From Somniosus microcephalus (taxonomy: Eukaryota): DNA of 64,000 nt. Below are positions 17,968 to 49,192 of this stretch, piece by piece. A program made the position numbers and the translations under genes. The stretch spans positions 140,554,001-140,618,000 of the forward strand of contig CM126214.1 of NCBI GenBank assembly GCA_052327205.1, in the 5' to 3' direction. Positions within the stretch are counted from its first letter, which is position 1. Each line of letters starts with the position of its first letter. The notes beneath the pieces are model-generated. The model had not been told where the DNA came from. It saw only the letters and a list, made by a program, of their open reading frames with translations, and ran no database searches.

Positions 17968-19235
17968 GGGCTGGATTTTCCCTGCGGAGGCGGGATGGCG
18001 GCGGGAGAGCTGGTTGGCGGGTTCCAGTCCCACTCCTGTCTGCAGCTGCTCACTGAAAATGATTTTCCATAGATTGGCCTTGTTAAGCCCACCCTGTGGG
18101 GTTCCCGGCCAATTAACAGGAAGCAGATCTGATGACGTCATTTGATGATGCGTCATTAGCCAGTTTCCTTAAATGGACCATGGTCACATTGATTTTGACA
18201 GTTGTGCTGTCAGTGCTCTGCAGCATTGAGGTGCTGCAAACACTGACAAGCACTGCACAAAGGTACACGTCTGCACTCAGGCTCATGCATGACTCCCTCC
18301 ATATCCTTATGGAGAGAGTCACAGCACGCAGGGAGATTCTCTTCCCTTCCCATGGACAGAAGAGACCTCTCCAGGAGATCAACACAGTCTGGTTGCACAT
18401 TGCACAGGAGGACACAAGCAGGGATGTCGTCAGGAGTGCCTGGCTGCAGTGGCGCCAACCTTTCAATGATCTCAGTCGATCACGAAACGTTACTGCAAAG
18501 CCACACTCAACCTCATCCTGTTGTGCCACTCATCACATCCCCATTATTCTGCCTTCCCTACCCTACTCCTGCCCATCCTTACTCACACCAACTTATCTTG
18601 CACCTCCACCCATCCCTCTCTATCTACATTATCACTTCCCCATCTCACTAGCCACCCCTCACACACATCCTCATCCAACTGCAAGCATACCAACTAACAA
18701 TACACAATGACAGGTGCTTGAGATGTTTAGCCAATGTTCACGTGAGAGAGGTTGTTCCAATGAGGTGCCACTGGATATAGAGTTGGCTCTAAACACTTAC
18801 AAGCTAAAGAAATCTCTATGTCTTATAAATGCAGTAACCAACAGTTTTTGAGCTCTGAAACTGAACAGCTGCAACATAATATCCTTTATACCACTTCTGC
18901 AGCTGTCAGGTTATCAGATAAATCAAAGCAGACTCAACTCACGACAGGGTGAGCTGGCGTGTTCCCCGAGCAGCGGGTAAGTCGTGGGGGAGCATGTAAA
19001 ATTACAAGGTAGGCTCAAAAGAGCATTAAACTGGCTGTTAACAAGCCATTTAATGATCTAAATTGCCTCCCCTGCTGCTTGGTGTCGGGTCAGTTCTGCG
19101 CAGACAGACCCGACACCTGGGAGACACGTGTGGAGGCGGGTTGACAGCGGGTTTCCTACCCGCTGTCAATCTTTGCTATTTTGACAGCAGACCCGCCTCC
19201 AAACCCGCTCTCTGAGCACTGGCAAAATTCAGCCT
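17968..19235 (+). mobile_element. Internally deleted Harbinger element with a Myb/SANT exon-1 relic
   Basis: Ends GGGCTGGATTTT / AAAATTCAGCCT. ~18255-18480 encodes LHILMERVTARREILFP..W..IA..V..W.Q.R..FNDL, homologous to 55652-55891. CRE TGACGTCA at 18133. Confidence 0.75.
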
Positions 19236-22300: not shown

Positions 22301-24224
22301 GAAATACCTCTTTGGCATTAGCTAATATTGTTGACAATCGTCCAGGAGTGACGTCTCATCTTTTTTACCGTCCACCATCATTGCATGAATGGAATACCAA
22401 TCTAAGTTTATCTTCCTGATCCATTCACGTCCCAATAACGGTGGTCCACCATTTGGCAGTATTTAGAGATACAATTTCCGTATTTTCTTGCCATTGTATT
22501 CGACAGGCACCCTTATTTTTCCTCTGGGGTATACTTTTTGCCCCGTATACGTCGTCAAGACGATGGATGTCTCTCTCAAGGGTATGTGTGAAAATAGCCG
22601 CTCATAGTCTCGTCGATTCATGACGGTTAGCGCTGATCCTGTATCCAATTCCATTTTAACTTGGGACCCTGCTATCGTGAGGGTGACCCAAATGGTTCGG
22701 TGATCCTCTTTTGCGATTACATTGTGAAGTTTGAGACAGCTTAATCTCCTGTTCTCGGATTCACTATCGCTCATCTGGTCTTCGGAACTACTGTCCGTCA
22801 TCTTTTGTACTTTCTTGTACGGTTCCTTAGTAGCCTTTTTGTTGTCACTGGTCTTCTTCCCAGACCTACAAACTCGTGCAATGTGTCCAATCTTCCCGCA
22901 TTGTCTGCATATTTTGTCTTTGGACCAGCAGTCCTTCTGGTCATGGTTAGTTCTGCCGCAGCGATAACATTTTGCAAATCCCCGTGTCATTTCGTGGGTG
23001 CCGTATTCCTGTGGTTTTTGTTGAATTTCTGCAGCTCCCCTGGCTGCTGCTTCATACAATACTGCCACGCTGAAAGCCTTATCTAGCGTCAGCTCTTTTT
23101 CTGCGAGTAACTTCTTCTGTGTTCCTTCACTCAGGAGTCCACAGACAAATTTGTCCCGTAGGGTATCTGCCAGTCCTGCTCCGAACTGGCAGTGCTTTGA
23201 TAGCTTGCGTAGTTCCGTAAGATACTCAGCATTGCTCTCATCTTTGTGCTGAGTTCTCCTGTGGAATTTAAATCTTTCTGCTATCAACAGCAGTGCAGGG
23301 TTTAAGTGCTCCTGTAGAACAGCAACAATTTCGTTAAAACTCTTCGCCTTCGGTTTGGCTGGAGTAATCAGATCCCGCAATAGGCCGTACGTTCTAGCGC
23401 CCATTATGTTTAGCAATATTGATGCCTTTTTCCCCTCCGCTATTTCATTTGCCTCGAAATATACCTCGACTCTTTCCACATACGTGGTCCAGTCCTCTAA
23501 TGTATTATCAAAAGCAGTGATACAGCCAGTCTTCAGCATCTTGCAAATCTAAAATGGTGCCTCCCGCGCTTTTCCTTCTTCCCCGCTGTTGTTAGCGCTG
23601 CTTTCCACGGTTTCCTGCGCGTTAAATATTAATTCGTTTTTTTAAATTATCTTCCCGTCGTGGAGTGGACCCTCTGGGACACTTCCCTCCCTCTTCTGAG
23701 GTCCGAACGCTGCCCAGCTTCGAAACACCGGCCGCGCCCTGTATGCTCCACCCTCTCTCTCTCTCCTTGCTTCCCGACTCGCTGCCCAGCCCCGTTGCAG
23801 CTCAGGAAGGATCAGAGCACTACCTGCCACCAGCCCGATTAGCTGGGAAACCACGGACCGAGGAACCCAGCCTGGCTCTGGACAGTCTCTCCTGCAAGTT
23901 TTGAAATCGATGATTGACGGTCGACGCCCGTTTCTCGAGTTTCAATGGCCTATTTTTTTTTTTCTTTCTTCTGGCTCCGACCTTCAACACGTCGTCGGAG
24001 CTGCTGCTGAGTTGCAGGTAAGTTCGTTTCTAACTCGTCGCCAGTGTTAAGTCCGTGAATGATTGAGACACGGACTAGCAGGAGAGAAACAAAGAGATCT
24101 TTACTGGTGCAAGGCATAAATGAATCTAACCAACAGAGGCTCTCTAGCGCCTTTTATACAGGAGTGGTCACTGCCGGTACTGCAGTCTGAGACCAGTTAT
24201 TCTCTTAAAGGTACATACACAACA
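19308..24224 (-). mobile_element. Full-length Gypsy (Mag-type) LTR retrotransposon, copy G1
   Basis: 180-bp LTRs 19308-19487 and 24045-24224 (TG..CA, 4 differences), 5-bp TSD TCTAC (19303-19307, 24225-24229), PBS TGGCGACGAG (tRNA-Ser GCU) at ~24034-24043, PPT AAAAGGGGAGGAAT next to the 3' LTR. Confidence 0.97.
19595..23539 (-). pseudogene. G1 gag-pol (Gag with two CCHC knuckles, protease LDTGS, RT YLDD, RNase H, integrase), frameshifted
   Basis: Broken across ORFs 22463-23539, 21840-22337, 21516-21797, 21219-21506 and 19595-21238; collinear with copy G2. Confidence 0.93.
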
Positions 24225-26350: not shown

Positions 26351-26976
26351 CACTATATTTTGAGTGGAAGATCAGCTTAAAATTTGAAGAAATGGCCACT
26401 TTTGGCTGTTCACGCTGTTTCTCTGTGAGTTCCGCCGATCTTCTGCCAAAGTTCCAGCGGGAGTTTGGGAGAACCTGGCCTAGAAATTCAGTTGCGTGCA
26501 CCAGCCATTAGCGCCTTAGGAGGAGTAGATCTCGAGCGCTAGGCACTTAGCGGCCGGGCGCAGGGCGATCTGCGCCTACGCACAACTTCAGTAGACATTT
26601 AGCACCGGCGCAAAGTGTTTGCGCGCGCTCAGCTGCACGCGCAGCTTATGATGTCATTTTGTCGTGCAACGCCCTTTGTGCGCCCCAAACTGGAACTTCA
26701 GTCGCGCCCGCCCAATGTGGGCATGGCGGTGCTAAGAACTGTGAAGTGGAATGCAGCAGAGGCCCTGCGGGCCTTGGGGAGCGCTAATTAAAGGGCACTT
26801 ACACTGAACTATAAAGGCCAGCCATTTTGCAGCAATGACTTTTGTGCAACGGATTTCTGGACAGAGACCAAGGAAGAGACCTTACTGATTTGGCCCAACA
26901 TAGGAGAGGTATTTTTGGCTTCTGGCCAGAGCTTGGAAATTTGCCTCATTGTGATTTCATTGTTTGCAAGTATATT

Positions 26977-28170
26977 ATGGGGGCTGCATGGGGTTCCAAC
27001 CCTCAGTTCCAGCATTATGTGCGAAGGGCTCGCAGACGCTGTGTGAGAGGGGCAGCCATGCCTAGACGCAGAGGGGGCATCAGGCGTCGGCAATGTAGGC
27101 CTTACCCACTCAGGGAATACCGCCAGCAGGTGTCCTATCTCACCATGACTGCCGCGCAGTGTGTTAAGAGGCTGCGCTTCAGAAGGGAGGTGGTTGCAGA
27201 GATCTGCCAGCTGCTTCACAGAGATCTGCGTCCACAGCTGATGTGCAGGACGTCTCTGTCGGTGGAAGTGAAGGTCACGGTGGCTCTGAACTTTTATGCA
27301 AGCGGCTCCTTCCAAGCCGCTGCTGGGGACATAGCTAACATATCCCAGTTCGCCGTGCATCGCTGCATCCGGCAGGTCACCGATGCCCTTTTCACAAGGA
27401 GACACCAATTCATCTCCTTCCCCATGACCCTGGAGAGGCAGGAGCAGCGTGCAGTCGGATTTGTGAGGATCGCGGACTTCCCCATGGTGCAGGACGCCAT
27501 TGACTGCACGCATGTGGCTTTGCGGGCACCTATCGGCAATGCCGAGGATTACCGCAACCGGAAGGGCTACCATTCCCTCAATGTACAGCTGGTGTGTGAC
27601 AACAGGCAGCGCATCCTAGCTGTCAATGCTCGCTTTCCAGGCAGCAGCCACGATGCATTTATCCTGCGCCAGACTACTGTGGCTGACATGTTCCAGGCAC
27701 AGCCTCCCCCAAGAGGATGGCTTATCGGGGACAAAGGCTATCCTTTGTGTACATGGCTCATGACCCCGCTCCGCGCGCCCAGGACCCCTGCTGAGGAGGC
27801 ATACAACGAAAGCCATCAAGCCACAAGGAACATCATAGAGCAAACGATTGGCATCCTCAAGCAACGGTTCCACTGCCTGGATCGCTCCGGCGGATCTCTG
27901 CAGTATTCGCCGGATAGAGTCTCCCAGTTCGTCGTCGTTTGCTGCATGCTGCACAACCTGGCTATCCGCAGGACTCAGGCACTGCCACCTCACGTTGGAC
28001 CACCACCTCAGGAGGAGGAGCAGGAGGACCATGAGGAGGAGGAGGAGGAGGAGGAGGAGTACCAGCCCAGGAGGGAGCCACAAGGTCCAAGGGCCGTCCG
28101 TCGGCGGCTTATTGAACGACACTTCTCGGCCCCCTGTCAGGGAATGGCTTGTGGCAATGAAGGGACATGA
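26977..28170 (+). CDS. Harbinger (HARBI1-like) DDE transposase, 397 aa, open frame
   Basis: ATG at 26977 (MGAAW). Motifs ALNFYASGSFQ, AIDCTH, NRKGYHSLNVQLVCD, PGSSHD, GDKGY, RNIIEQTIG, CCMLHN and an acidic tail. Catalytic D-D-E are present. Confidence 0.93.
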   Translation: MGAAWGSNPQFQHYVRRARRRCVRGAAMPRRRGGIRRRQCRPYPLREYRQQVSYLTMTAAQCVKRLRFRREVVAEICQLLHRDLRPQLMCRTSLSVEVKVTVALNFYASGSFQAAAGDIANISQFAVHRCIRQVTDALFTRRHQFISFPMTLERQEQRAVGFVRIADFPMVQDAIDCTHVALRAPIGNAEDYRNRKGYHSLNVQLVCDNRQRILAVNARFPGSSHDAFILRQTTVADMFQAQPPPRGWLIGDKGYPLCTWLMTPLRAPRTPAEEAYNESHQATRNIIEQTIGILKQRFHCLDRSGGSLQYSPDRVSQFVVVCCMLHNLAIRRTQALPPHVGPPPQEEEQEDHEEEEEEEEEYQPRREPQGPRAVRRRLIERHFSAPCQGMACGNEGT

Positions 28171-28468
28171 ATGCAGCCGCTCCGCAAGCCCTCAGCCGGT
28201 TAACGCAACAACCACTTCAAACATCAAACATGGACAAGCTGAATAAAGAAAAAGCTTTATTGAACAAACTCAGGGCCCTTCCCACATGAAACCCAAAAAC
28301 AGACAACACCCCCAAAAAACAGTCAAACACATGACTCACTCCCACAACCTGGGGAGGAATAGCAAAACTTTTCCATCCAAATGGCCTTCATCCTCGGCCT
28401 TACCAAAACAACCCCCCCCCATAGACAACACAACCACCCCCATATAAAAAAACATTTGGCAACACACT

Positions 28469-31080
28469 CTACTTTGTGTGCCGAGAGGGCGAGTCCTTGT
28501 CCAGCCTTTTCCGGCCCCTGGCCGACCTGCTGCTCCGCCTCAACCTGGGCCCTGTGGGTGCTGCAAGGCTGGGGGAAGGCTCCTGAGGGGCACATTGCGT
28601 GACGGCAGATGCCCTTGGGGGTCGGCCTAGATGAGCTCTGGCCCTCGAGGGGCCGGCTGCTGACTGCTGCAGCTGTGGCTGGGCAGCATCAGTCTCTCCA
28701 GCAGCTCGTGGCAGCTTCGCTGGGGGAGTGGCAGTGGCGGCTGCAGCAATGGGGGCAAGCTGGCTGATGCCAGGCGCTCGCTGCTCGCCTGAGACCCTGG
28801 CACTCGGCCGGGCTGGCACTGCAGCAAGCGCAGCAATCTGCTGAAGGCCAGACCGCTGTGCTGCTGCAGCGCGGCGGGTGCCCTGGCGATGCCTGCCTGA
28901 CACAGCGAGTGTGGCAGCAGTGAGTGCCTGTACTGCCCTGGTCTGTGCCTGCATCAGACCAGCCAGTGACTGCACGGCACCACTGATCAACTGGCCACTC
29001 GCTGCCTGTGCTGCCCTGAAGTCGTCCCGACTCGCGTCCTGTGCTGCCCTGAATTCGGCCCGACTCGCATCCTGTGCTGCCCTCAATTCGGCCCGACTCG
29101 CGTCCTGTGCTGCCCCGAATTGTTCGAGACCCCTGGCCTGTGCTGCCCCGAGTTGTTCAAAACCCCTGGCCTGTGAGGCCCCGAAATCGGACACACTATG
29201 AGCCAGGGACTCGATGGCCTCAGGCAACCGTGCCACAACCCCCATGAACTCGGTGTGCCGGCGATCCGAGTCCGCGTACATTTGATCGAGGAGGCGCACC
29301 TCCTGGGTGAGGACCATCTCCGGACTGGAGGCCGGACTCTCCCTCTGGGGAGAAGGCCGCCGAGTTGCCCGACCCTTCCCACGTGGCTGGACGCCACTGG
29401 GCCCAGCAACTACACTCCCCTGCAACACTTCCCCCCTCTGGGGAGAAGGCAGCCGAGCTGCCCGACACTTCCCGCGTGGCTGGACGCCACTGGGCCCAGC
29501 AACTACACTCCCCTGCAACACTTCCCCCCTCTGGGGAGAAGGCAGCCGAGCTGCCCGACCCTTCCCGCGTGGCTGGACGCCACTGGGCCCAGCAACTACA
29601 CTCCCCTGCAACACTTCCCCCCTCTGGGGAGAAGGCAGCCGAGCTGCCCGACCCTTCCCGCGTGGCTGGATGCCACTGGGCCCAGCAACTACACTCCCCT
29701 GCAACACTTCCCCCCTCTGGGGAGAAGGCGGCCGAGCTGCCCGACCCTTCCCGCGTGGCTGGACGCCACTGGGCCCAGCAACTACACTCCCCTGCAACAC
29801 TTCCCCCCTCTGGGGAGAAGGCAGCCGAGCTGCCCGACCCTTCCCGCGTGGCTGGACGCCACTGGGCACAGGAGCTACACTCCCCTGCAACACTTCCCCC
29901 CTCTGGGGAGAAGGCCGCCGAGCTGCCTGACCCTTCCCGCGTGGCTGGACGCCACTGGGCACAGGAGCTACACTCCCCTGCAACACTTCCCCCCTCTGGG
30001 GAGAAGGCCGCTGAGCTGCCCGACCCTTCCCGCGTGGCTCGACGCCACTGGGCACAGGAGCTACACCCCCCTGCAACACTTCCCCCGGCTCTCCTCCAGG
30101 GAAGACATGTCCCCTCCATTGCCATCCCCTGGCGCGGATGAGGGTTCCCCCGATGGGCCGCCTTCCTCTTGCTCCTCCTCGTCCTCCTCTTCCGAGGGAC
30201 TGTCACTGGCAGCTTCAGGGACCTCCTCCTCACCAGCTGAAAGCAGGAAGGCACAAGAGTAGCTTTAGAGTGAGGACAGGGCGTCAGCGAGGGAGGCATG
30301 AGTGGTGGCATTCAGCGCATTGGTCGGACAGTGGCAAAGGATGTAGATCTGAAGCACAAGGGGAACGAGAGAGGTCCAAAAGGTCATGTCCTTACCATTG
30401 GGGCCCAGCACAGGGTCGGCATCTCCACATGCAACGGGGCCAATCAGCCGGCCACCCATGAGTCGACCCATGCGCTCCTCCAGGTCACTGAGCTGCTGGA
30501 ACTGGGGACGGCCTCCCCCGGTGACAGTCCGGCTCCTCAGATTCTGGGTCAGCTTGGCCTGCAAGAGAAAGGATGGCCTCTAAGTACAGTGTGGTGCCCT
30601 GTTGTTGTGTGCACTGCCTCCCATGGTCGAATAGCTTGGCCAGTGTGGTGCCCTGTTGCTGTATGCACTGCCTCCCATGGTCAAATAGCTTGGCCAGTGT
30701 GTCAAGTGCAGAAAGTGCAATTGATGTTCATGCCAGTGCCATAGCTGCTGGATGAGGGCTGGCCATTAGGGCTTTGAGGTCCCTTTGCCCATAATGTGAG
30801 GTGCACATGCAAGGATGAGGAGGACACTGGAAAGGGTACTCACCCTGACAATCCGAGTGAGGTCGTTAAACTTTTTCCGGCATTGGACACCAGTCCTGGG
30901 GACATTGCAGGTGGCTGTGACCCTCTGGGCGATATCCCTCCAGGCTCTCCTGTACACCCTGGTGGCAGGCTTCTTGCCACGGTCCGGGAACAAGATATGG
31001 CGTCTCCTCTCCAAAGCCCTAACCAGCACCTTTAAATCATGGGCAGAGAAGCGCTGCGCTCGCTCACGGGCCCTCTGCAT
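28469..31080 (-). CDS. H1 Myb/SANT (NAIF1/MSANTD-like) partner, 3 exons, 1-bp frameshift at ~30082-30086
   Basis: Exon 1 31080-30844 (RFS..W..IA..RT..QCRKKFNDL, GTGAGT donor), exon 2 30558-30396 (TGGG motif, GTAAGG donor), exon 3 from 30236. As written it stops at 30061 (191 aa); adding one G to the 5-G run gives 722 aa ending at 28469. Confidence 0.85.
29343..30086 (-). repeat. 93-bp coding minisatellite, 8 units of 31 aa
   Basis: Unit GEVLQGSV(APV/VAG)PSGVQPRGKGRAARLPSPQR occurs 8 times in ORF 28469-30079. Confidence 0.95.
30587..30700. repeat. ~54-bp tandem duplication in H1 Myb intron 1
   Basis: CAGTGTGGTGCCCTGTTG..GCACTGCCTCCCATGGTC.AATAGCTTGGC occurs twice. Confidence 0.85.
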
Positions 31081-31879
31081 CCTTCCTGGTGCTATTTCTC
31101 TCCAGCAGCAGTGTTTAGGCCTAGCTGGAGGGCTGCAGTATCCAGGGCGTGGCAGCAGACCAAGTCGACCCTTCCCCCTTTAAGAGCTGGCCGGCGCCAG
31201 GGTGTCTGCTGTCAATCAAGAAATGACCGCACCTGCGCTGCGCCCGGCCTCGGCGGTATCACGCTGCACCGCTGGCTTAGCACCTAAAGATAGCCGTGCA
31301 TCGCCAGTTTTAGCGCTCGAGCAAACTCCTTGGCCAAAGCTACTGAATATCGGCGAAGTGGCCTCCACTTTGCGCCGGGCGCAAACTTTAGCGGCCGCCC
31401 GACTTTACCGCCCCAAAAGTGGCTATACTGAATTTCTAGGCCCCTGTGTCTTTCAAAAGAATTGCAGCTGGAAATCTGGCCATAGAATTGTTATACCTGC
31501 CTCTAAAGGGTCACACAAAAAATCATGATTGACTCAAAATAACTATTTATCTATTAAGGTACCAATCAAATATCTGATTGACTAACCAAATATAAAAATA
31601 TCAAAAGTGGTAGAAAATATCAGCGAGGAACATACAATCAGAAAATTGAGCAATCAGTCACTCAATTCTTTTCAAAGCTACGAATTTGCAAATGAGGAAA
31701 TACCATTAAACTAACTAATCTGATTGATAAAACCATTTTTTCACAATATCTATGGCTGCCATTTTGCTTCTTCACTTAGATGAGTGTATAGAGCTAGAAA
31801 CAATGTTTAAAGCACTATAAAACATTAACAATTATCCTGAAACTGAATCAGTAAACTTATCCATAAAATTGAATCTTAA

Positions 31880-32200
31880 TATTTCCACTTGTGGGGAAGA
31901 GCATAACTAGAATATAAGATAGTCACCAAGAAATCAAATAGGGAATTCAGAAGAAACTTCTCTACCCAGAGAGTGGTGAGAATATGGACCTCGCTACCAC
32001 AGGGAGTGGTTGAAGTGAATAGTATAGATGCACTTAAGGGGAGGCTAGATAAGCATATGAGGGAGAAGGGAATAGAGGGCTATGCTGACAGGGTTAGATG
32101 AGGAAAGACGGGAGCAGGCTCGAGTGGAGCATAAACGCCGGCATGGACTGGTTGGGCCGAATGGCCTGTTTCTGTGCCATATTTCCTATGTAATCCTATG
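31880..32200 (+). repeat. CR1 3' fragment
   Basis: Encodes RRNFSTQRVVRIW; 3' UTR ends TCCTATGTAATCCTATG. Same subfamily as 48203-53572. Confidence 0.85.
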
Positions 32201-33917
32201 TTACTAATGCCTACAAGACTTTTCTGCACTTGTGTCTGAAGCCTGGGGCTTGATTTGGAAATTTCACCTCAGCCTGAGTGTTGAAACTTCTAGTTGTTAT
32301 GGACAAGCTTTTGTATTTAGGCTGCCCAAGGCTGCAGGTAGCATCAGAAACTGTGCTCCAGGCTTTGGCCTACTAGTGGCAACACCACTAGTAGGTCTAC
32401 TAGTATATTAATAAAAAATGACATTGTGAGTGAATGAAGGTGCCAGCTGGGAAATTCACACATACACTGCAAAATCCAAATGCACTGTTTACTTAAGAAA
32501 CTAATTATGGATTGAGCAATTTACACTCAACTTGACAAGACAAGTGAAAGACTGGAATCAACTTCATTTACAGAATACTGTACAGGAGTGAAAATTTATC
32601 CAGGAATTTAAAATCATTTGGTTTCTCCTGGTGTTCTGAGCAATTTGTGCATACATCTTTCTGGTAGCTGGAAGGTACGTTCTTTTTATAATTTTTTCTG
32701 TTTCGACTTTTTTTATTTAAGAACTTTCACAGCAAAATACAAATCACCTTCACACTCTGCCTCAGAAAATACCCTCTGAGGAGACCTAATGCAGGAACAG
32801 CAATTTATATAAAGTAGCAATGTGTGGAACATTGTAGATCAAGTGAAGTTGGGTCGATTACAGGGCAGTACAGCACATCCTGTAATGTACAGGTTCGTAA
32901 ATACCATGGGGCGAGTGCCAACACTCCGTAATGAGGTACAGTATTCCCAGGAGGGAGTGCTGATGAATTGCAGCATTCAATCCTGAATCAAATGCTTACT
33001 TTTTATGTATATAATTATACAATTATTCTGGATAGAAAAGGATTGAATCATAGCCACAGAGAGGGAAAAATCCAGATCGATTTTTAGAACAAATAGAACA
33101 GGACTCGCGATCTCTCCAGGTCCATTCCAATTATTTTAGCACAGAGAATGATTAGCCATATTGAAGTTAGATACTGTTAGCCTAAGGTTATCGACTACCC
33201 ATCTAATTTTTTTAATTAAAACAATTAATTTATTCAAAATAATTCTTGCAATATAAACCTTTTTTAATAAAAAATCTTTTTACACAAACTATTTCTGTTG
33301 ATGCTCCTCTTGAAGTGGCAGCTTATCAATGCAATTTAATTCTTTATTTTGCAAAACAGGCTTTAGTGCTGTTAAGCATTTAGTCTTGTCTCAACAAGTT
33401 CTTTTAGTTGTGTTCGACGGCTTGCCATTATGTGTCATTGGTACAAAGAAGGCAATGAAAGTACTAACATTGCAGTACGATACAAGGTTTGCTTGAAAGT
33501 CAATCAGGTCGAACCAAAGAAAATTGTTTTTATCCATTTCTAAAATGTAGACTGTGATCAATTATTAATTGGCATTGCAAACAATGCGTAAATTGAGTTG
33601 ACAAAATTTTTGGGAATAATGATTTCCAAAAACCCAAATGAGATGCACATGTCACTTTATATGGAAACCAAACAAATTGATAAATGTACTTTGTGGCAAT
33701 GCTGTGGGGTAGGCAGCTTCCTGAAAGATATATGTTACATGTCTACCTAGTAATAGTTTATCCATGTGTTTATGCATACCAATTAAGGCACATTAGATTG
33801 TCAAAGAGCAGTCGGCAAAAATGAAAGCAATTCAGAAGAGATCTGCAAGAACTGCCGTGACCCATTCCTCGCATCAGCAGGCATGTATTAAGACCAATAA
33901 ATAAGCTGACAGATACA

Positions 33918-34268
33918 TCAACAACAACATGTATTTATATAGCGGCTTTAACATAGTAAAACGTCCCAAGACGCTGCACAGGAGTATTGTAAAACAAAAA
34001 ATTTGACACCGAGCCACATAAGGATAAATTAGGGCAGGTGACCAAAAGTTTGGTCAAAGGGATAGGTTGTAAGGAGTGTCTTAAAGAAGGAAAGAGAGGT
34101 AGCGAAGCAGAGAGGTTTAGGCAGGGAATTCCAGAGCTTAGGGCCTAGGCAGCAGAAGGCACGGCCACCAAAGGTTGAGTGATTATAATCAGGGATGCTC
34201 AAGAGGGCAGAATTAGAGGAGCGCAGATATCTCGGGGGGTTGTGGGGCTGAAGGAGATTACAGAGATA
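33918..34268 (-). repeat. L2 3' fragment
   Basis: ORF 34029-34277 YLCNLLQP..RYLRSS..GGRAF..LWNSLP; (CAA)n tail. Confidence 0.85.
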
Positions 34269-35094
34269 AGTCTTCACAAGCTTTCATTAGAGATGCAAGA
34301 ACCTTCACATAAATTTCATAAGAAGCCGCTAAAGGAGATGTGGGGCACCAACCTATTGGGTAGGTTTTCAGCTGGCTGCTCGGGCGTAAAGCTAGCATTG
34401 CGGGTCAGCTGCAATAGAAACTGCCTGATATGTAACTCATGCTTGAATAATAATAGTTTTTAAATCTCCCACTGTGGCTTTTCCTGTAGTTGTTGGGAGA
34501 AGATGTTTAGATTTCCTATCTTGTGAATGGCAGTTTGGTGAGTCAGTAATGGTGTCCCAGTACGTTCCAATTGAACTTATTAAATTTGAGTCCTAAACAT
34601 TGACAAATTTGAATAAGTCACAGTTTTTAATTTCAATACAAGATACACAGATGTGCAAATATGTGGATTGGACCCTGGCCATCCTAGCCACAAGCGGTGG
34701 TGTTCAGTGTAGGCTTAGAAAGGGTAGCTATTTAGCAACAGTTATTAGTAGCTTAGCAATTAGAAAATATTGGCCTTGAATTCCCTTAGTAAAATTGCAA
34801 CTCTTTGGATGGTTTAGCGACATAAATTAAGGGAAATGTTCTGCCACAACCTCACCAACCAAACAGACTGTCAGTATATTGCTCCCTGCCAGTAACTTGG
34901 GCAATACCCTCTCCCCCCAACCTCATATAACTGGTGGCAGGTGCATGCAGTTTAACAAACCAGTTCTTTCCCTTTGTTTCTGCACCAGAACATCACTATA
35001 AATGTAGTATTGGGAAGGCCAGTACAGTGTCCCAGAGGTGATGGAGCTGAATGGAATCCATAGCTTTTTGAATATTGGCCCTGAATTCGCGGTC

Positions 35095-35350
35095 GGTATG
35101 AGTCATGGCAGCTTCCTGGATAGGAGGCATAGACGTACAAAATTATGCAACTGGCATCACATGTTAGCTACACATTAATTGAAAGGCACTCCTTCCAGTT
35201 TATAAAATTGAGGCATGTTCTCAAATGGGGCCATCAATGCCACATGAATAAAAACAATGATACCCTGTCCCTGGAGGAATCCTGCTTGCCTATAAAAGTT
35301 GCCCATTGAGAATATGATGAAATTAAGATGAACACAGCATCTGTAACGTT
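35095..35350 (-). pseudogene. Old Harbinger transposase relic
   Basis: Frameshifted GFLQGQGIIVFIHVALMAP and YASYPGSCHDSY, homologous to GAIDCTHVAL..PGSSHDAF. Confidence 0.7.
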
Positions 35351-35369
35351 CGTAGTACATTTTGGGAGG

Positions 35370-36088
35370 GAAGAACAAGGAATGTGAGTATACACTGAAT
35401 GGAAAGATGTTGCAGGGTATGGATGAACAGAGAGACCTAGGGAGTCAAAAACATAATTTCCTGAATGTGCAAGTGCAGATAGGTATTGCCATAAAAGGGG
35501 CAACAGCGCTTTGGGTTTTATAAATAAGGACACAAACTACAACAGTAACGAATGATTAATATACACAAAACATTGGTTAGGCCACAGTCAGAGTACTGTC
35601 TGCTGTTTTGGGCACTCCATTACAAAAAGGACATTAAAACCATAGAGAGTGTATAGCATCATTTCACAGGATGATGCCAGGGATGGGGAAATATTTCCAT
35701 TACAGCAGAGATGACTAAGAGATTTAATAGAAGATTTTTTTGTAAATTATGGATGGCTTTGCTAGAGTAAATAGGGAAAGGTTATTTCCTTTGGTTGGGT
35801 AGTCAGTGATGAGGGGGTCATCAACTTAAAATTATCATCTAGAGCGTGAAGAGAGAAGTTGGGGGAAACTTGTTACACAGAGGGTTGTTGGAGCATAGAG
35901 AGCTTTGTCACTAGAGGCAGTGATTATTGCATCTTTTAAAAGAAAATTGAATGAAGTTTTGAAGCAGAGGAAGATACCGGGCTTTGGGGAGAGCAATGGA
36001 CACTGGGATTAGTCTTGGAGTGCTGTCATAAAGAACCAGCACGGACACAAAGGGCTGAATGGCTTCCTTTTCTTCTGTAATATTCTAT
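35370..36088 (+). repeat. Old CR1 3' fragment whose tail is interrupted by H2
   Basis: Decayed RDLGV..LVRPQSEYC..FWA..TQRVV. The tail TTCTAT resumes as GTTTCTATG at 40302. Confidence 0.75.
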
Positions 36089-36446
36089 GGCCTAGAAATT
36101 GGGTATAGCCCCGCTTGAGGCGTTAGAACTGGCGATGCGCTAAGTTTATAGCCAGACGCGAGCTATCCGCGCCTGGCGTGATATTGGGTTGCATCGCCCC
36201 CAAGGGGGATTGAGGCGCTAAATCAGCCGTTGCACGGTGCTCTTAAGGCGCAAAAGGTCAGGCGCTACTCAATTTCGACGCGGACGGGCGCAGCGCAGGT
36301 GAACTCAATTACGGCAAAGCACGAGACCTGCAGGCGCCGGCCGGCTCTTAAAGGGGTGGGTCAGTCAGACTGAGCTTCAACACCCAACGCCCTGAAGGCC
36401 TCAGATTCGGCGCTCACCCTTGTCTGGCGGTACAAAGTTGTTCATT

Positions 36447-38906
36447 ATGGAGAAGGTTAGGCAGATAGCAGAGCGCTTCAGCACTGAGGCTCTGGACCAC
36501 TTGGTGGCTGCAGTTGAACACCGTCGGGAGGTCCTGTACCCGGATAATGGCAAGAGGCCAAATCAGAAGGCTTATCGACGATCTTGGAGGGAGGTTGCTG
36601 TGAGGGTCAACTCCAGCAGCATGGCGACCAGGACCCCTGTTCAGTGCAGGAAGAAATTCAACGACCTCACATGGATCGTTAGGGTGAGTGATGGTTTACC
36701 AAACTTGTGCTTCCCTCCATCTACAGCTGACTTCGGGCACCCTGCTGCAATGATGCACCACTGGCCATCTGTCAGTATGCACCCATGGCCCTTTCTGGGC
36801 AGACACATGGACAGATGTCTCAAGGCCTCATGTAAGGGCTCTTGCACAATAGGGGGCATGTGATGATGTCTCAAGGCCTCATGTAAGGGCTCTTGCACAA
36901 TGGGGGGCATGCGATGATGTCTCAAGGCCTCATGTAACAGAACCTCCCCTTCTTTCCCCTGCAGTCCAAGATGGCGCATAGAAACACAGAAGATAGGAGC
37001 AGGAGTAGGCCATTCGGCCCTTCGAGCCTGCTCCGCCATTCAACGAGATCATGGCTGATCATCCAAACCCTAGCACCCAGTCCCTACACCAACAGCCATC
37101 CCACCCAAGCCCTATCCCTGTAACCCCACGTATTTAATCCCCCCAAACACTAAGGGCCAATTTTTTTATCATGGCCAATCAACCTAACCCGCACATCTTT
37201 GGACTGTGGGAGGAAACCGGGGCACCCGGAGAAAACCCACGCAAACACGGGGAGAATGTGCAAACTCCACACAGACAGTCACCCGAGGCCAGATATGAAC
37301 CCGGGTCCCTGGCGCTGTGAGGCAACAGTGCTAACCACTATGCCACCGTGCTGCAGATTAGAAAAGAACAGCGTCGAACCAGTGGTGGACCTGCACAAGT
37401 GGTCACTCTCACGGATCTGGAGGAGAGAGTGCACCAGATACTTGGAGGACGTCTGTCTGGTCCAGTGACCACTGCATCTGCCGACCCCATTACCGACAGC
37501 GAGGGTAAGACTCTGACCTTTTCCACCTGTTGCCTTCCACTTGGTCCCCCCGCCAGCATGCATCCTCAGTGTGCAGCCATGTCAGAGCCATGCCGCAATC
37601 TGGCATGCCTTTCAGCAAACCTGTCCTTTTGCTAAAGCCACTCTTCCACCTCCCACTTTCAGATGAAGCAGCACCAACTCGGGCTCAACGTGCTGAAGCT
37701 GCCAGTGCCAGTGCCACCGGAGGTGAGGACCAGGAGGAATCCAGACCAGCCGTTGCAGAATCCGGGGAGCTGAGACATCTGCAGACTGGGGATAGTAGTC
37801 CCCTGGAGGGGAGGGGGGGTGGCTCTGAGGATGAACCAGTTGCCGGACCAAGCGGCATGGAGCAACACAGGGGGGATAGGCAAGTTCGCCCACTGTCTCC
37901 CCGCAGGACAAGGCAGGTCGTCATGACTGCTGCACAGAGTGCAGATGAGGTCCGTCGCCTGGCAGAGATGAGCAACCAGGCCCGGGTCAGACACACGGAG
38001 CTGATGGCTGCAGTGGAGAAAATGCCTGAGTCAATAGATTCATTGGCTAGGAGTATGTTGGACTTTGGGGCAACAATGGAGAGGACTCTGCAGGGCTTTG
38101 GCGCAACAATGGAGAGGTCTCTCCAGGTGTTCGGGGAAACAATGGACAGGTCTATCCAGGGCTTCGGGGCCACAATGGACAGGACTATCCAGGGCTTCGG
38201 CCCAACAATGGAGAGGACTGTCCACGGCTTTGAGTCGGCAATGGAAAGGACTGTTCAGGGCTTCGGACAATCCCTGGAAAGGTCTGTGCAGGGCTTGCCC
38301 GAGGCAGTGGAGCGGTCGGCTCCTGCCTTGTCCGAGGCCATGGGAAGAACTGTCCAGGCCTTCTCCGAAGCACTGGCACCTGGCACACAGGTCCTCACTG
38401 TTGCCACACATTCACTTGCTGGGCTCCTTCACAGCCAGATTGACGCAACGCGATGTCTCACTGCAGCCACCCTCTCTGCATCAGATAGGATCACCCCGGG
38501 CCCTTCCACTCCCATACAAGGCCAGGAATCCGTGGAGCCTGCGATTGTGGCGGATGAGCCGAGCCGCTCCCCTCAGATAGCCAGTGTGTCGTCCGACCAT
38601 GGTGCAGGTGTCCTCTCTCGTCAGGAGACCATTCCACATGCCAGTGCTGGGACGCCTGCATTGCAGCTGCCACCACCTGCAGCCCACACTGCTTCCAGCC
38701 ATGCTCAAAGCAAGCATCCTGCGTCCGCACCCTCCAAGCCCAGAGGTCGGCCAGGCCGTACCTCAGGGGCTTCTGCGCTTCCAGACAGTCGGCAAGTGTC
38801 CCCCAGCCTTGAGGCCGCCACTGGGGTGCAATTACATAGGAGCAGCAGGGAGGGAAGGGGCCGGGCGCAGAAGAGAAGTCGTTCTCCCTCAAGGGGCCAG
38901 TTGTAG
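36447..38906 (+). CDS. H2 Myb/SANT partner, 3 exons, SINE inserted in exon 2
   Basis: Exon 1 36447-36683 (79 aa, same length as in H1, GTGAGT donor). Exon 2 36965-37504 is interrupted by a SINE. Exon 3 37663-38906 is open and in phase. Confidence 0.85.
36814..36937. repeat. ~51-bp tandem repeat (~2.4 units) in H2 Myb intron 1
   Basis: GATGTCTCAAGGCCTCATGTAAGGGCTCTTGCACAAT.GGGGGCATG repeated. Confidence 0.85.
36980..37354 (-). mobile_element. HE1-type V-SINE with CR1-derived tail
   Basis: Minus strand: tRNA head GCAGCACGGTGGCATAGTGGTTAGC..GGTTCATATC, V-domain TGTGTGGAGTTTGCACATTCTCCCCGTG..GGTTTCCTCCCACAGTCCAAAGA, tail matching the CR1 3' UTR. Confidence 0.9.
38064..38393 (+). repeat. 33-bp coding repeat, ~10 units of 11 aa
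   Basis: FGATMERTLQG / FGATMERSLQV / FGETMDRSIQG / FGATMDRTIQG / FGPTMERTVHG / FESAMERTVQG / FGQSLERSVQG, then three more degenerate units. Confidence 0.9.
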
Positions 38907-39183
38907 AGGGAGGTGCTGAGACGTTTGTTTGTCCAAATTCAAGGACACCCTCACCTGCTGTTATAGGTGCAGATTTTTGTTGAGTTTTGCTGCTTTGCCG
39001 AACAGGTCACATTTATTTTGGAAGTTATGGTTTCTGCTCACTTTACGTTGTTTAGCTGTAATGAAAGACTTTTGTGTCAATAAACAGAAGTTTAAATGTT
39101 GCTTGGTGCATGTGACTACTTTCAGTGATGCTGGCATGCAGAGGCCCTCAAACATCCAAAGTGCGCATGAGGTAAGACTCTCA

Positions 39184-39795
39184 TCATTCCGCCACAGGGG
39201 TGTCGAGACGAGTCCAGAGGAGCCTCTGACGTATGGCCCTTCCACTTTCAGCAGCCCTTCCATCTTCCTCCTCCTCCTCCTCCTCCTCCGCCTGCTCTTC
39301 CTCCTCCTCCTCATACTCCTCCTTCTCTGCCTGCTTGTGCAGGGTCCGAAGGAAGGTAATGAATGGACGCGTTCGCCTATAAAGGGCATCTGTCACTTGC
39401 CGGATGCAACAGCGGACTGCAGCCTGAGCGACAGTCGCATTGTCCCCAATGGCTGACTGAAAGGATCCGTTGGCATAAAAATGGAGGCCTTCAGTCAGTG
39501 TAGCCATCACGGACAGAGAGGTTCTGCAGCGTTCATGCGGCAGCAGATCCTGACCAAGCAGGTGGCACAGGTCAGTAACAATGTCCCTCCAGATTCGGAG
39601 CCTTCGCAAACACTGCTCCTCCGACATGTCAAGGCTTGTCACCTGCTGCCTAAAGACCCTCGCAGCATCCCATCGGATTGGCCGACCTCCATTGCCCCTC
39701 CTCCTTCTGGCTAATCCCGGCCCTCTCTCCCGCCGTCTCTCTGCCCCTTCACAGTGTTGGGCGATGAGGCTGTCGCCCTCCAAACAAGCTCCCAT
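39184..39795 (-). CDS. H2 transposase with in-frame deletion of the DDE domain (203 aa)
   Basis: N-terminal region QCLRRLR..LHFYANGSFQ..CIRQVTDAL..FITF joins directly to the acidic tail and RAIRQRLL end. IDCTH, GDKGY and IEQ motifs are absent. Confidence 0.85.
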   Translation of the reverse strand: MGACLEGDSLIAQHCEGAERRRERGPGLARRRRGNGGRPIRWDAARVFRQQVTSLDMSEEQCLRRLRIWRDIVTDLCHLLGQDLLPHERCRTSLSVMATLTEGLHFYANGSFQSAIGDNATVAQAAVRCCIRQVTDALYRRTRPFITFLRTLHKQAEKEEYEEEEEEQAEEEEEEEEDGRAAESGRAIRQRLLWTRLDTPVAE

Positions 39796-40720
39796 TCCGA
39801 TGCCAGTTGGTCAAAAGGCTTTTAGGTGTAGTGCTGCAAGTGGTTCGGACAGGGTTGAAGGTCCCAAGTACTGTAAAGCTCAAATCCCAGAACTCCGCTC
39901 CACATTAGCTCGCCAACTCTCTCTAGCAGCGATCACAATGAGCAGGCCAAGTGGCAGAAGATTCTGCACTAGAGCTGTCCCCTTTAAATAGCGCCGCCCT
40001 ACTCCGAGAAGGGCCTGTTAGCCCTCCCTCGAACTGTCACTAATAGCGCTGGGCGCTAAGGCTCCGGGCGCCACCCAATATGCGCTCAGGCGCTCCTAAA
40101 AGGCGTTGCACACTGAAATGACGTCATGAGCTGTTTGCGCTCGCGGGCGCGTGCAAACACTTAGCGCAGGCGCTAAATGTATAGTCAATTTCTGAGTCGG
40201 CGCTATCCTCATAACGTTCGCCCCAACATAGGGCTTCGCCCCAATTCTAGGTCTCTTTAGGCGCTCAGCGCCGGCGCTACCAACCCAATTTCTAGGCCTA
40301 TGTTTCTATGATAATAGAGATGCACAGCTGCATGATTGCTGTAACTGAGGTCATTGGAGGTTATCTAGAAGAACCCAGCTGCATATAAATTCAGCACTCT
40401 GGTCACTTTTGCAGCTACTGATAAGGCTGGGCTTCATGTTGACGTGGGCTGGAAGTCTTCAACCAGCAGCTGGCATAACTCGCCAATAACCTCTAACATA
40501 TTGTCAGTGTGAAAAACCAAGGTTGAGTGGGTACCTATGGGTCGGCTGAAAATGTCTTCTATGATGCCTCACTCCAGCCTTCGTCCTTGTCTACTCCATA
40601 TCCTTATCATCATACCCTTCAGAACATAGGATTAAGGGTATTCCCATAGTGTACATCAAGTATTTGCCCCAAAATGCATTCGTTTACTGTACTCACTTCA
40701 AATTTCACATACTATTCATT

Positions 40721-41669: not shown

Positions 41670-41920
41670 ATCATGATAATTGATTGGAGGCCAGGGATAC
41701 CCCTGCATCTGTGGTTGATGACAACTCTAAGGCATCCACACTCAACAGGAGCCAACAGTTACAGTGAGACCCTTGAAGCAATTTAAATTTGCCATTAAGC
41801 ATTCAGTTGGGATACTGAAACTTCACAGGTCTGGTGGAGCCCTGCAGTGCAGGCTGGCGAGGGTATAAAGAATAATTGTAACCTGCTATGTGCCTCACAA
41901 CTATGCAATTCAGAAAGACT
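41670..41920 (+). pseudogene. Old Harbinger transposase C-terminal relic
   Basis: Decayed LIGGQGY..LWLMT..VGILK..RSGGALQ..RIIVTC..HNYAIQ. Confidence 0.7.
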
Positions 41921-44368
41921 TAGTTAACTGAATGGTGGAACAGGCTTGAAGGGCTGAATGGCCTAGTTCTTTTCCTGTGTTCCTATATTTCTATGTTCCA
42001 GGCAGCGATGCAGCTGCTATCCACATATCCATCTACTCAGGCGATAGAAATAGTTATAAGTACTGGCTTGTCGAGATAGAACAGAGAGTTTCTGCAAAGA
42101 AGTTGGCTCCCACTTCAAGGGAAGTAAGGGGTATATCTGGGCAGCAGCCCCACTATGTTTAGTTCACCCAGTTCAATCGCATGTCCGTGCTATTGCAGTG
42201 ATTCAGAACTACATGGGCGCAGAGACATATATTTACAAAAATATCATCAAAGTACTCAGTTTAAAGATTCTGAAAAGGGATTCCTCTCCCTCCTCAAAAG
42301 AATCTATTACATGAGTGTGACACTTTCCATTTCTCACAACATCCATTCTGTGATCTCTCTGAGTAAGATGACGAATTTACCAAAATTAGTTAAGGTTTTA
42401 TGCTGCGAGTTTGTGCCCACTTGGAACTAAGGTGAAGCTGTCAAACTCATTCCACAAAGGATTTATAATGCCAACAATCAGAGGAAACATTCATCCCACC
42501 GTTCTGGGCTGGACTACTTTGTTATTGCTGTCTATACATAAACCTTGAAAGATGACCAGATGGGAGCTAACCATTGTTGTTATTAATACTGTTGTTACCT
42601 GGTTATTAAATATTACTCAGTCATCACTCTCTTCAACATATTAGTAGGCAATTAACTCCACTGTAATTATATCTTAAATACTTCTTTTTGCCCCCCTTAG
42701 AATGAAGCTGTTGTTATACAGTTATTAAATGTTACAACGTTGTCATTCATTGCACTGTGTTAACATATTAATAGATAGCTTACAGCATTGCAATTATGCT
42801 CTTGTTAAATATGGTAATAATGAATGTTCCGTGATATTTTGTTCTGGATTGTGAAAGTAGGAGCTGATTAAAATAGAAGGCGGTGCTGAGTTTTTTTATC
42901 ACGGTCAGGCCTTGAATTCCAGAATAAGACAGAGAAGGAGGCTGGAATTTTCCCATTCCCGTGCGTGTGGGTTTGGAGGCAGGTCGGCTGTAACAATTAC
43001 GGAAATAGGCAGCGCGTTGGGACCCCGCCGTCATCCCGCCTCCTCGCGCCTTTAACTCGGGCACTTTTCCCAGCGCACCACAGGCCCGATTGGCAGAGGC
43101 AGGTGACCAAATTCAACTCATTAAATGTTTGTTATCAGACCTTTAAGAGGTTTTTTAACTTCAGCTTCTGAATTTAATGGCATGAACACGGGAAGCACGC
43201 AGCTCGGGAACCTCACTTGTGAAGGGGAGATGGAAGCTCAGTGGCCATTGTGTGAAGGCATTAACTGACAGCTGGGAATACCAGATAAATAGACACACCT
43301 TACACCTCATTGGTTGCCGAAGGGAAAGGTTTTTGCTGATTCTATTTTTGTGCACAGATTTAGGTTTCTGGAGTTTGCAGATCAGTTCTGCAATCTCGGA
43401 AGCCACTCTCAGCACATTGCTAGTCAGTATTAGAACATTGAGGGATTGTCCCTCTGATCACTACTTGACCTGCCATCTACAACATCAGCACGGGTGCCAA
43501 GATGAGCCCCAACACCAGCCACACCACAGTAGCAGCAGCCACAACAGCAGCCTTCTCCTCAACGACCTGATGCTCCACAGGAGAGAGGGGGGCACCACAG
43601 GGCTGCACCGCTCTGGAGGCAATACCCCCAACACAGGGTATACAGGCAGAGGATGAGCTTCCTCAACAGGACTGAGCAGCAGTGCTTCAGAAGGCTCAGG
43701 CTATCGTGCCAGGTCATCGCAGATATTTGTAGCTTGCTGGAACAAGACCTGCGGCCCAGAGGTTCTGGTGGACATGCCTTAACAGTGGCTGTCAAAGTCA
43801 CCACTGCTCTCAACTTCTTCGCCTCAGGCTCCTTCCAGGGATCTGGAGCAGATATTTGCAGGATCTTGCAGTCGGCCGCCCACAGATGCATCACCCTGGT
43901 CACCAATGCCATGTTTCACAAGTCAGCCAATTATATCAACTTTGCCACTGATGAAGCCAGTGTTACTGAGCGGGCGCTCAGCTTTGCAGCTCTGGCTGAC
44001 TTCCCACGGGTGCAGGGCATTATCAACTGCACAAATGTGGCCATGAAGGCACCCCATCATCACCCAAGAGTGTTTGTGAACCGCAAGGGCTTCCACTCCC
44101 TCAATGTGCAGCTCATCTGCAACCATAAAAAGATGATTATGCATGTGTGTGTCAGATTCCCTGGCAGCTGTCATGACTTTTTCATGCTGTGCCAGTCCAC
44201 CCGCCCTCAGCTCTTTGCACCTCCAAACAGACTTACCAGCTTGCTGCTTGGAGATAAGGGCTATCCACTGAAGACGTGGCACATGACATCCCTGAGGAGG
44301 CCAAGTACTGAGGCCGAGGACCGTTATAATGAAAGCCACATCGCAACCAGAAGTGTCATAGAACAAGC

Positions 44369-49182: not shown

Positions 49183-49192
49183 GATTTTCAAG

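What the first reader, a model, noticed from the sequence alone, without database searches (positions are those of the whole stretch)
26477..40298. Two neighbouring Harbinger elements with reciprocal defects: possible split two-component transposition system
Seen: H1 and H2 lie 4.6 kb apart in inverted orientation. They share the outer 12 TIR bases (GGCCTAGAAATT), GGCGCTAA-type subterminal repeats and the same Myb gene exon structure. H1 keeps an open D-D-E transposase but its Myb gene is frameshifted. H2 has lost the catalytic domain but its Myb reading frame is open apart from a SINE. Established: Harbinger transposition needs both proteins; the Myb-like protein binds subterminal repeats and recruits the transposase. 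Inference: H1 transposase plus H2 Myb could complement in trans. The outer ends (26477, 40298) could also define a 13.8-kb composite unit. Different TSDs (CCT, TAT) show they inserted independently.
Basis: partly seen in the sequence, partly recalled or inferred. Interest (0 to 1): 0.72.

Follow-up and report, generated by a model that had tools for sequence, protein, structure and literature searches.

The report
Transposase-dead Harbinger lineage keeping its Myb
The two neighbouring jumping genes are independently damaged copies of large families and most likely sit together by chance, but one belongs to a lineage of over a thousand copies that lost its DNA-cutting enzyme while its DNA-binding helper gene stayed under purifying selection, so it likely spreads by borrowing the enzyme from intact relatives.

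Summary
Anatomy confirmed: H1 (26477-31442) and H2 (36089-40298) are Harbinger DNA transposons with their own 3-bp TSDs. The pair idea fails. H1's Myb frameshift and H2's SINE are private to these copies, and the SINE truncates H2's Myb. The shared TIR core marks 89,021 ends genome-wide, about 62 such close pairs are expected by chance, and 6 of 20 position-sampled H1 copies have both genes open. The idea survives at family level. H2's catalytic deletion is shared (1,064 junctions) and nests in a lineage whose transposase died earlier (527 matches at a second stop site, 100 of 100 listed TAG). Of 35 complete H2-lineage elements, 35 keep Myb exon 1 and 29 lack a working transposase. After transposase death, Myb exons 1-2 stay constrained (27N:25S, omega about 0.3, as on live branches), while the dead transposase shows 86N:12S. 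Spliced H2-lineage Myb reads exist. The helper is unresolved: intact own-lineage copies or the H1 clan. Closest known: C. inopinata MADF-only Harbingers (PMC13668399), with no selection test in its main text. Earlier scan notes saw chance Harbinger pairs in this genome; the 8 shown of 18 did not describe this lineage.

The parts
26477..31442 (.). H1: full-length Harbinger of an autonomous two-gene family; TSD CCT (26474-26476, 31443-31445); 16-bp TIRs
   Evidence: copies at 96-98% identity; TSDs
26977..28170 (+). H1 transposase ORF, 397 aa; D176 (27502), D252 (27730), E288 (27838); private G173D, R299H and four more changes; stop codon lost (15-aa extension)
30844..31080 (-). H1 Myb exon 1 (Myb/SANT-like domain)
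30396..30558 (-). H1 Myb exon 2
28469..30236 (-). H1 Myb exon 3 with a 93-bp tandem repeat; private 1-bp loss near 30081-30088, premature stop at 30063
36089..40298 (.). H2: member of the DDE-deleted subfamily D2 of a Myb-retaining Harbinger lineage; TSD TAT (36086-36088, 40299-40301)
36447..36683 (+). H2 Myb exon 1 (Myb/SANT-like domain)
36965..37504 (+). H2 Myb exon 2, interrupted after codon 84
36979..37352 (-). Private interspersed-repeat insertion (homologues in 52 stored loci; tRNA-headed SINE look, recalled as shark HE1/V-SINE type); truncates H2 Myb at 131 aa
   Evidence: no Rfam match; family name recalled
37663..38906 (+). H2 Myb exon 3, open (413 aa), with 33-bp repeats
39184..39795 (-). 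H2 transposase remnant, 203 aa: N-terminal 157 residues joined in frame to the acidic tail
39325..39335 (-). Family-wide deletion junction (short repeat coding ..KQAE / ..EQAE) that removed the DDE domain

Best explanation
H1 and H2 are independently inserted, privately damaged copies of two large Harbinger families that most likely lie together by chance; H2 belongs to a lineage whose transposase died while its Myb gene stayed under purifying selection, so that lineage likely spread by making its own Myb protein and borrowing transposase in trans from intact copies elsewhere. Shown: a ladder of subfamilies. O and A0/A1/A1b have an intact D-D-E. A2 carries stop Q232. F carries stop E190 and catalytic E288Q. 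D has the DDE domain deleted and includes the window copy. A side branch M (1.6 kb) keeps only a 184-aa mini-Myb frame. The F and D subfamilies transposed with 3-bp TSDs. Shown: constraint on Myb, none on the transposase, after the death. Inferred from Harbinger biochemistry: Myb binds the ends and imports and recruits transposase through the transposase N-terminus. Inferred: Myb is the dose-limiting, multi-site partner and transposase is an abundant shared catalyst, so a de-repressed master copy gains from its own Myb but not from its own transposase. The donor is most simply the lineage's own intact A copies (about 60%); the far more numerous H1 clan is possible (about 40%). The window's H2 copy is itself a dead end, with its Myb truncated.
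For: Private lesions. All 10 other H1 copies in which the motif was found have the missing base (15 loci examined; 11 matched, including the window's own). The other H2 top hits skip the insert. Chance closeness. 89,021 clan ends, 13,118 clan transposases with the intact-E motif and 3,275 H2-type ends give about 62 expected pairs within 4.65 kb. Family-level loss. The deletion junction is seen in 33 of 35 loci (2 not matched by the anchor) and 1,064 times genome-wide. 12 of 12 longer copies share a stop and lack the catalytic E; there are 527 matches at that site, 100 of 100 listed TAG. 10 of 30 A-type copies share another stop and are sister to F. In the first 41 H2-type ends on contig 1, 35 have both ends; 35 of 35 keep Myb exon 1 and only 6 of 35 belong to catalytically intact subfamilies. 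Selection on subfamily consensus sequences, dead branches: Myb aa 1-133 27N:25S (omega 0.33, p=1e-4; live branches 0.31); coiled region 0.44; rest of Myb 0.83; transposase 86N:12S (live 0.20); Fisher p=2e-7. ML codon model: 0.26 dead vs 0.29 live. The signal persists without the F stem (11:14 vs 26:4, p=0.0013) and after the deletion (7:10, p=0.002). Myb, transposase and non-coding trees give the same ladder, apart from the weakly supported placement of A2d. Private mutations run near 2.3N:1S. RNA: exact removal of Myb intron 2 (158 nt) in 16 reads from 5 starts in two runs, in the orientation expected for Myb-sense RNA if the library is stranded in the usual way. Precedent: Ping and Pong ORF1/TPase cross-function (PMC2836001, passages).
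Against: Myb is not needed in cis. Clan derivatives with no Myb amplified too: three 1.38-kb copies and several 650-730 bp MITEs. The recognition helix is identical in H1 and H2 Myb, and trans Myb should be plentiful, so why selection acted is inferred, not shown. Several consensus sequences rest on 4-9 copies and O on single copies. The 'coiled' region was chosen after seeing alignments. The transposase omega above 1 on dead branches (2.1-3.3) is not explained by plain neutrality, so the neutral baseline may be imperfect. The RNA comes from a coded organism that may be a relative; most reads are 90-99% alike and lie on both strands and across introns. The spliced reads cannot be assigned to D rather than A, M or O, nor to this locus. 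Age and target-site profiles do not single out a donor.
Confidence: 0.72

Rival explanations
1. One reading: this H1 copy and this H2 copy form a linked, mutually complementing split system or a 13.8-kb composite transposon.
For: Inverted neighbours, 12 shared TIR bases, similar subterminal motifs, open H1 D-D-E. Cross-family ORF1/TPase mixing works for Ping/Pong at 62%/77% identity; H1 vs H2 lineage is 54-57% (Myb N-terminus) and 76% (transposase core).
Against: H2 Myb is truncated at 131 aa; H1 transposase carries G173D; both reciprocal lesions are private; outer TSDs differ; proteins act in trans, so closeness gives nothing; about 62 chance pairs are expected; H1 copies with both genes open are common.
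Confidence: 0.03
2. H2's lineage is an ordinary non-autonomous deletion series; the Myb frame is a passenger and the low omega is an artefact of few consensus sequences, mutation bias or sequence exchange with live copies.
For: Myb-less derivatives amplify in this clan. Internal-branch mutations have an odd spectrum. The dead transposase deviates from omega 1 in the other direction.
Against: Changes in Myb exons 1-2 fall at codon positions 11/4/25 (p=2e-4) versus 37/30/22 in the transposase. The low-complexity part of the same gene is near neutral (0.83). Region trees show the same ladder. Constraint equals that of live branches.
Confidence: 0.1
3. The Myb protein is selected for a job other than recruiting transposase, such as shielding its own copies from silencing or activating their transcription, or a benefit to the host.
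For: [quoted passage not shown] C>T is the rarest change on internal branches (18 of 192) but the commonest private change (344 of 712). M keeps only exons 1-2.
Against: No direct evidence here. Avoidance of CpG decay is expected of any master lineage. Ends and Myb evolve together along one mobile ladder, unlike a fixed domesticated gene.
Confidence: 0.15

Closest known systems
Harbinger-1M_cIno and Harbinger-2M_cIno of Caenorhabditis inopinata (PMC13668399; abstract, section 8 and Discussion read, term search of main text; supplements not seen)
   Same: PIF/Harbinger derivatives that keep the DNA-binding gene, lack a DDE transposase, and expanded; no matching expansion of DDE-only copies; trans supply of transposase inferred. 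A 1.63-kb class exists there and a 1.6-kb class (M) here.
   Different: There: 19-25 MADF loci, one intact DDE gene, no intact two-gene element, and no selection test found in the main text. Here: over a thousand copies, intact two-gene relatives remain abundant, the transposase was lost in steps and more than once, and continued purifying selection on Myb is measured. There a new insertion shows present activity; here none is shown.
Harbinger3_DR / Harbinger3N_DR of zebrafish (known through passages of PMC2836001 and PMC9392472; the primary paper was not held)
   Same: Two genes, DDE transposase plus Myb-like protein; Myb binds the ends and imports transposase via its N-terminus; non-autonomous derivatives moved in trans.
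   Different: Harbinger3N_DR is non-coding; no Myb-retaining dead lineage is described in the passages seen.
Ping/Pong/mPing of rice (PMC2836001, passages)
   Same: ORF1 and TPase of different families cross-function; short derivatives amplify.
   Different: mPing encodes nothing; cross-mobilisation there was shown experimentally, here it is only plausible.
Myb-bearing Harbinger expansion in Pleurodeles waltl (PMC5741667, passages)
   Same: Large vertebrate Harbinger expansion with expressed Myb and Harbi domains.
   Different: The passages seen do not describe transposase-dead, Myb-selected subfamilies.

Membership tests
PIF/Harbinger superfamily | TIRs and 3-bp TSD | tested here: met
   Both window elements; most fetched complete copies show matching 3-bp TSDs
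PIF/Harbinger superfamily | DDE_Tnp_4 transposase with D-D-E | tested here: met
   H1: Pfam E=1e-38, D176/D252/E288. H2 lineage: intact in O, A0, A1, A1b; dead or deleted in A2, F, D
PIF/Harbinger superfamily | Separate Myb/SANT-like gene | tested here: met
   Myb_DNA-bind_5 in both elements
Autonomous Harbinger copy (H1 in the window) | Both genes able to make full proteins | tested here: not met
   Myb stops at 191 aa; the family consensus meets it
   H2 Myb truncated at 131 aa; outer flanks CCT vs TAT
   0 of 35 complete H2-lineage elements; none among 25 loci inspected (five A-type loci lacked the Myb-side end and look truncated); no genome-wide census
DNA-binding-gene-only Harbinger derivatives (Harbinger-1M_cIno type) | DNA-binding gene kept, DDE absent or dead, family expanded by transposition | tested here: met
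DNA-binding-gene-only Harbinger derivatives (Harbinger-1M_cIno type) | DNA-binding gene expressed | tested here: inconclusive
   Spliced H2-lineage reads, not assignable to subfamily or locus
DNA-binding-gene-only Harbinger derivatives (Harbinger-1M_cIno type) | No intact two-gene element left in the family | tested here: not met
   417 A-type intact-E motifs; 20 of 30 sampled lack the shared A2 stop; A0, A1 and A1b consensus frames are open in both genes
DNA-binding-gene-only Harbinger derivatives (Harbinger-1M_cIno type) | Present-day mobility and trans complementation | not testable with these tools
   Needs population data or an excision assay

The most novel reading that the evidence does not exclude
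The H2 lineage is an adaptor-only parasite: it keeps a selected Myb protein, recruits the abundant transposase of a different family (the H1 clan), and its dead transposase N-terminus, the Myb-binding part, was driven by positive selection to stop soaking up Myb (omega 2-3). That would be division of labour across Harbinger families in a vertebrate genome, with selection acting in opposite directions on the two genes of one element.
Probability: 0.2. Interest if true: 0.72.

Novelty: new variant of a known kind. Interest (0 to 1): 0.5.

Why it matters
DNA-transposon proteins act in trans, so defective copies are expected to shed all coding capacity (general theory, recalled). Here one of two genes stays as constrained after the transposase died as before, through a ladder of subfamilies. 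This gives a quantitative, vertebrate-scale test case for the trans-partition model proposed in 2026 for C. inopinata and left hypothetical there. It also suggests a route by which Myb genes of Harbingers outlive their transposases, which bears on the repeated domestication of MSANTD/NAIF1-type genes (PMC9392472, passages). The pair in the window itself is ordinary.

Tried and rejected
(1) An early reading that the H2 lineage has no intact parent (long branch to the H1 clan) was wrong. The degenerate motif missed the lineage's EHTIG motif; intact A and O subfamilies turned up. (2) An apparent age gap (D younger than live A, p=3e-4) used top-hit-biased D copies. With position-sampled copies it vanished (D 0.90%, live A 0.99%, H1 0.83% private non-CpG; p=0.22 and 0.18), so age does not name the donor. 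(3) Target-site profiles of H1, A, F and D are alike and do not name it either. (4) My first junction pattern matched only the window copy because of a private base. (5) RNA laid on an H1 copy showed reads on both strands and no intron joint at stricter settings; uninformative. No indexed RNA holder was listed; runs X1 and X9 added nothing on expression. (6) Protein search with H2 exon 3: no hit at E<=1e-10. PDB search with the H1 transposase: none. Rfam on the insert: none. (7) Complex prediction for H1-type transposase with H2-type Myb was not available; no verdict. (8) Likelihood-ratio tests are trusted only for Myb 1-133, because the fixed-parameter order was not echoed. (9) Rows dropped: L044, L045 (partial or inverted) and the duplicate L025; L085, L094 (rearranged); L096, L027, L055, L184, L201, L212, L214; L091, L098, L215, L217, L221, L020, L023, L067, L069, L220 were left out of group consensuses; codons 276-329 (repeat) were excluded. 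L004 was cut at its first true end. (10) The Sinzelle 2008 paper was not held. Literature searches. They found no other report of selection on a Myb-only Harbinger lineage; Repbase and subscription journals were not searchable, and no supplements were read.
Full report
1. Observation. The window lies in a 6.4-Gb animal genome. It is likely a shark or ray; that rests on a recalled likeness of the repeats and on earlier scan notes, and was not tested. H1 runs 26477-31442 (TSD CCT) and H2 36089-40298 (TSD TAT), 4,646 bp apart, with 16-bp TIRs that share 12 outer bases and clustered GGCGCTAA-like sites. H1 has an open DDE_Tnp_4 transposase and a three-exon Myb gene that stops at 191 aa. H2 has the same exon plan, a 374-bp repeat inserted after codon 84 that ends the protein at 131 aa, and a transposase remnant with no catalytic domain. 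The H1 transposase has six private changes, among them G173D beside catalytic D176.

2. The pair is ordinary. Both elements are members of large dispersed families, with top hits at 96-98%. The H1 frameshift is private: all 10 other copies in which the motif was found have the missing base. Both genes are open in 9 of 28 top-hit copies and 6 of 20 position-sampled copies. The H2 insert is absent from the other top hits. The TIR core occurs at 89,021 ends across many subfamilies and MITEs. 13,118 clan transposases carry the intact-E motif and 3,275 ends are of H2 type, which gives about 62 chance pairs as close as this one. The window holds further, unrelated Harbinger remnants. The outer flanks do not form a TSD.

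3. What is not ordinary. H2's deletion is a family trait: 33 of 35 loci show the junction, there are 1,064 genomic matches, and the 100 listed split into 60 of one junction type, 39 of a second and 1 other, which suggests two deletions at the same short repeat. Longer relatives (F) share an in-frame stop and have lost the catalytic E: 12 of 12, and 527 matches with 100 of 100 listed TAG. The first 41 H2-type ends on contig 1 gave 35 complete elements: 15 DDE-deleted, 7 of a 1.6-kb class M, 2 other short forms, 2 F, 3 A2, and 6 of catalytically intact subfamilies. All 35 keep Myb exon 1. M keeps a 184-aa mini-Myb frame, open in 5 of 7 copies. Of 30 A-type copies (417 matches), 10 share a different stop and are sister to F. 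Trees from ends, Myb, transposase and non-coding parts give one ladder, O - M - A0 - A1 - A1b - A2 - F1 - F2 - D1 - D2/D3, with the window copy in D2; only A2d shifts, with weak support. F and D copies carry their own 3-bp TSDs, so they transposed after the transposase died.

4. Selection. Private mutations run near 2.3N:1S in both genes. On internal branches, counted by parsimony on subfamily consensus sequences against a neutral fraction taken from non-coding internal changes, live branches show omega 0.20 for the transposase and 0.31 for Myb aa 1-133. After the death the transposase shows 86N:12S (omega 2.1), while Myb 1-133 shows 27N:25S (0.33, p=1e-4), the coiled region 0.44, and the rest 0.83; Fisher p=2e-7 for the constrained Myb parts against the transposase. 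An ML codon model gives 0.26 (dead) against 0.29 (live) for Myb 1-133, and 2.5-3.3 against 0.20 for the transposase. The result holds without the F stem (p=0.0013) and on the branches after the deletion (p=0.002). Exons 1-2 were defined by gene structure; the coiled region was chosen after seeing alignments. Groups are small (4-16 copies; O single copies), and dropped rows are listed under Tried and rejected.

5. Expression. Two RNA runs from a coded organism, which may be a relative, gave 16 reads from 5 starts that remove exactly the 158-nt Myb intron 2 of a D copy, all in one orientation consistent with Myb-sense RNA. Most reads cover both strands and introns, as expected of read-through. 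Many reads at that boundary carry an M-like exon start (compare), so the spliced reads show only that the H2 lineage's Myb is spliced somewhere. No intron joint was listed for H1 at stricter settings.

6. Mechanism. Established from passages: both proteins are needed, Myb binds the ends and imports transposase through its N-terminus (PMC2836001; PMC9392472), and Ping and Pong proteins cross-function. Inferred: dead-lineage masters made their own Myb and used transposase from intact copies. The most likely reason for selection is that Myb is dose-limiting while transposase is abundant. Against a strict need, Myb-less derivatives also amplified and the recognition helix is identical in H1 and H2. 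The donor is unresolved. Live A, D and H1 copies are of similar age and share a target preference. Own-lineage A copies are the simpler donor; the H1 clan (76% core identity) is far more numerous.

7. Comparison and novelty. It is a Harbinger by every tested feature. It works like the MADF-only Harbinger-1M_cIno family (PMC13668399; abstract, section 8 and Discussion read), whose authors call the partition unreported and the trans supply hypothetical; their main text has no synonymous or purifying-selection terms (supplements not seen). It differs in that intact two-gene relatives persist, the loss was stepwise and repeated, copy numbers are in the thousands, and constraint on Myb is measured. 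Eight literature searches found no other such report; Repbase and most subscription journals were out of reach, and Myb-only Harbinger entries may exist there.

8. Unexplained. The dead transposase has an excess of amino-acid changes, several next to the catalytic residues. Internal changes are rich in transversions with C>T rarest (18 of 192), whereas private changes are 344 of 712 C>T. About 12% non-coding divergence built up along the dead ladder while subfamily ages differ by under 0.5%.

9. Verdict. The neighbouring pair is chance decay. The H2 lineage is a Myb-retaining, transposase-dead Harbinger with measurable selection on Myb: a new variant of a recently described kind. Interest 0.5.

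Noticed in passing
G000, genome-wide: One Harbinger clan has at least 89,021 TIR ends and 13,118 intact-E transposase motifs, a very large expansion; PMC9179366 (passages) found no Harbinger in elephant shark and asked for other cartilaginous fish to be checked.
   Followed up: partly
L152, L183, L196, L199, L200, L204, L209 (e.g. G000:C1:7574864-7576491): 1.6-kb subfamily M with no transposase and a 184-aa mini-Myb frame, open in 5 of 7 copies; 4N:6S on its own branch.
   Followed up: partly
H2-lineage internal branches: Dead transposase shows omega of 2-3, with clustered changes around the catalytic D and E.
   Followed up: partly
H2-lineage internal branches: Transversion-rich, CpG-sparing substitution spectrum and fast internal divergence relative to copy age; could reflect error-prone repair during transposition.
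   Followed up: partly
L313-L315 (G000:C1:3780383-3781758 and two more): 1.38-kb H1-clan derivatives that keep only a transposase N-terminal remnant, with no Myb and no DDE.
   Followed up: partly
L327, L328 (G000:C1:428883500-428891500; 433799500-433809400): Close inverted pairs of F-type copies; 4 pairs within 15 kb among the 100 listed matches, far more than even spacing would give (local hopping or inverted duplication).
   Followed up: partly
window 43653-44366, 55891-55661, 18234-18479, 41694-41916, 40320-40493, 35018-35209: Further, more distant Harbinger transposase or Myb remnants in the same window.
   Followed up: no
window 19595-23548 (-), 49184-52761 (+), 14855-16804 (-), 44934-45890 (+): Two LTR-retroelement gag-pol regions, a LINE reverse transcriptase and a LINE endonuclease ORF (Pfam).
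   Followed up: no
flanks of H1, A, F and D copies: Shared target preference, roughly N-A-C followed by an A/T-rich 3-bp TSD.
   Followed up: partly
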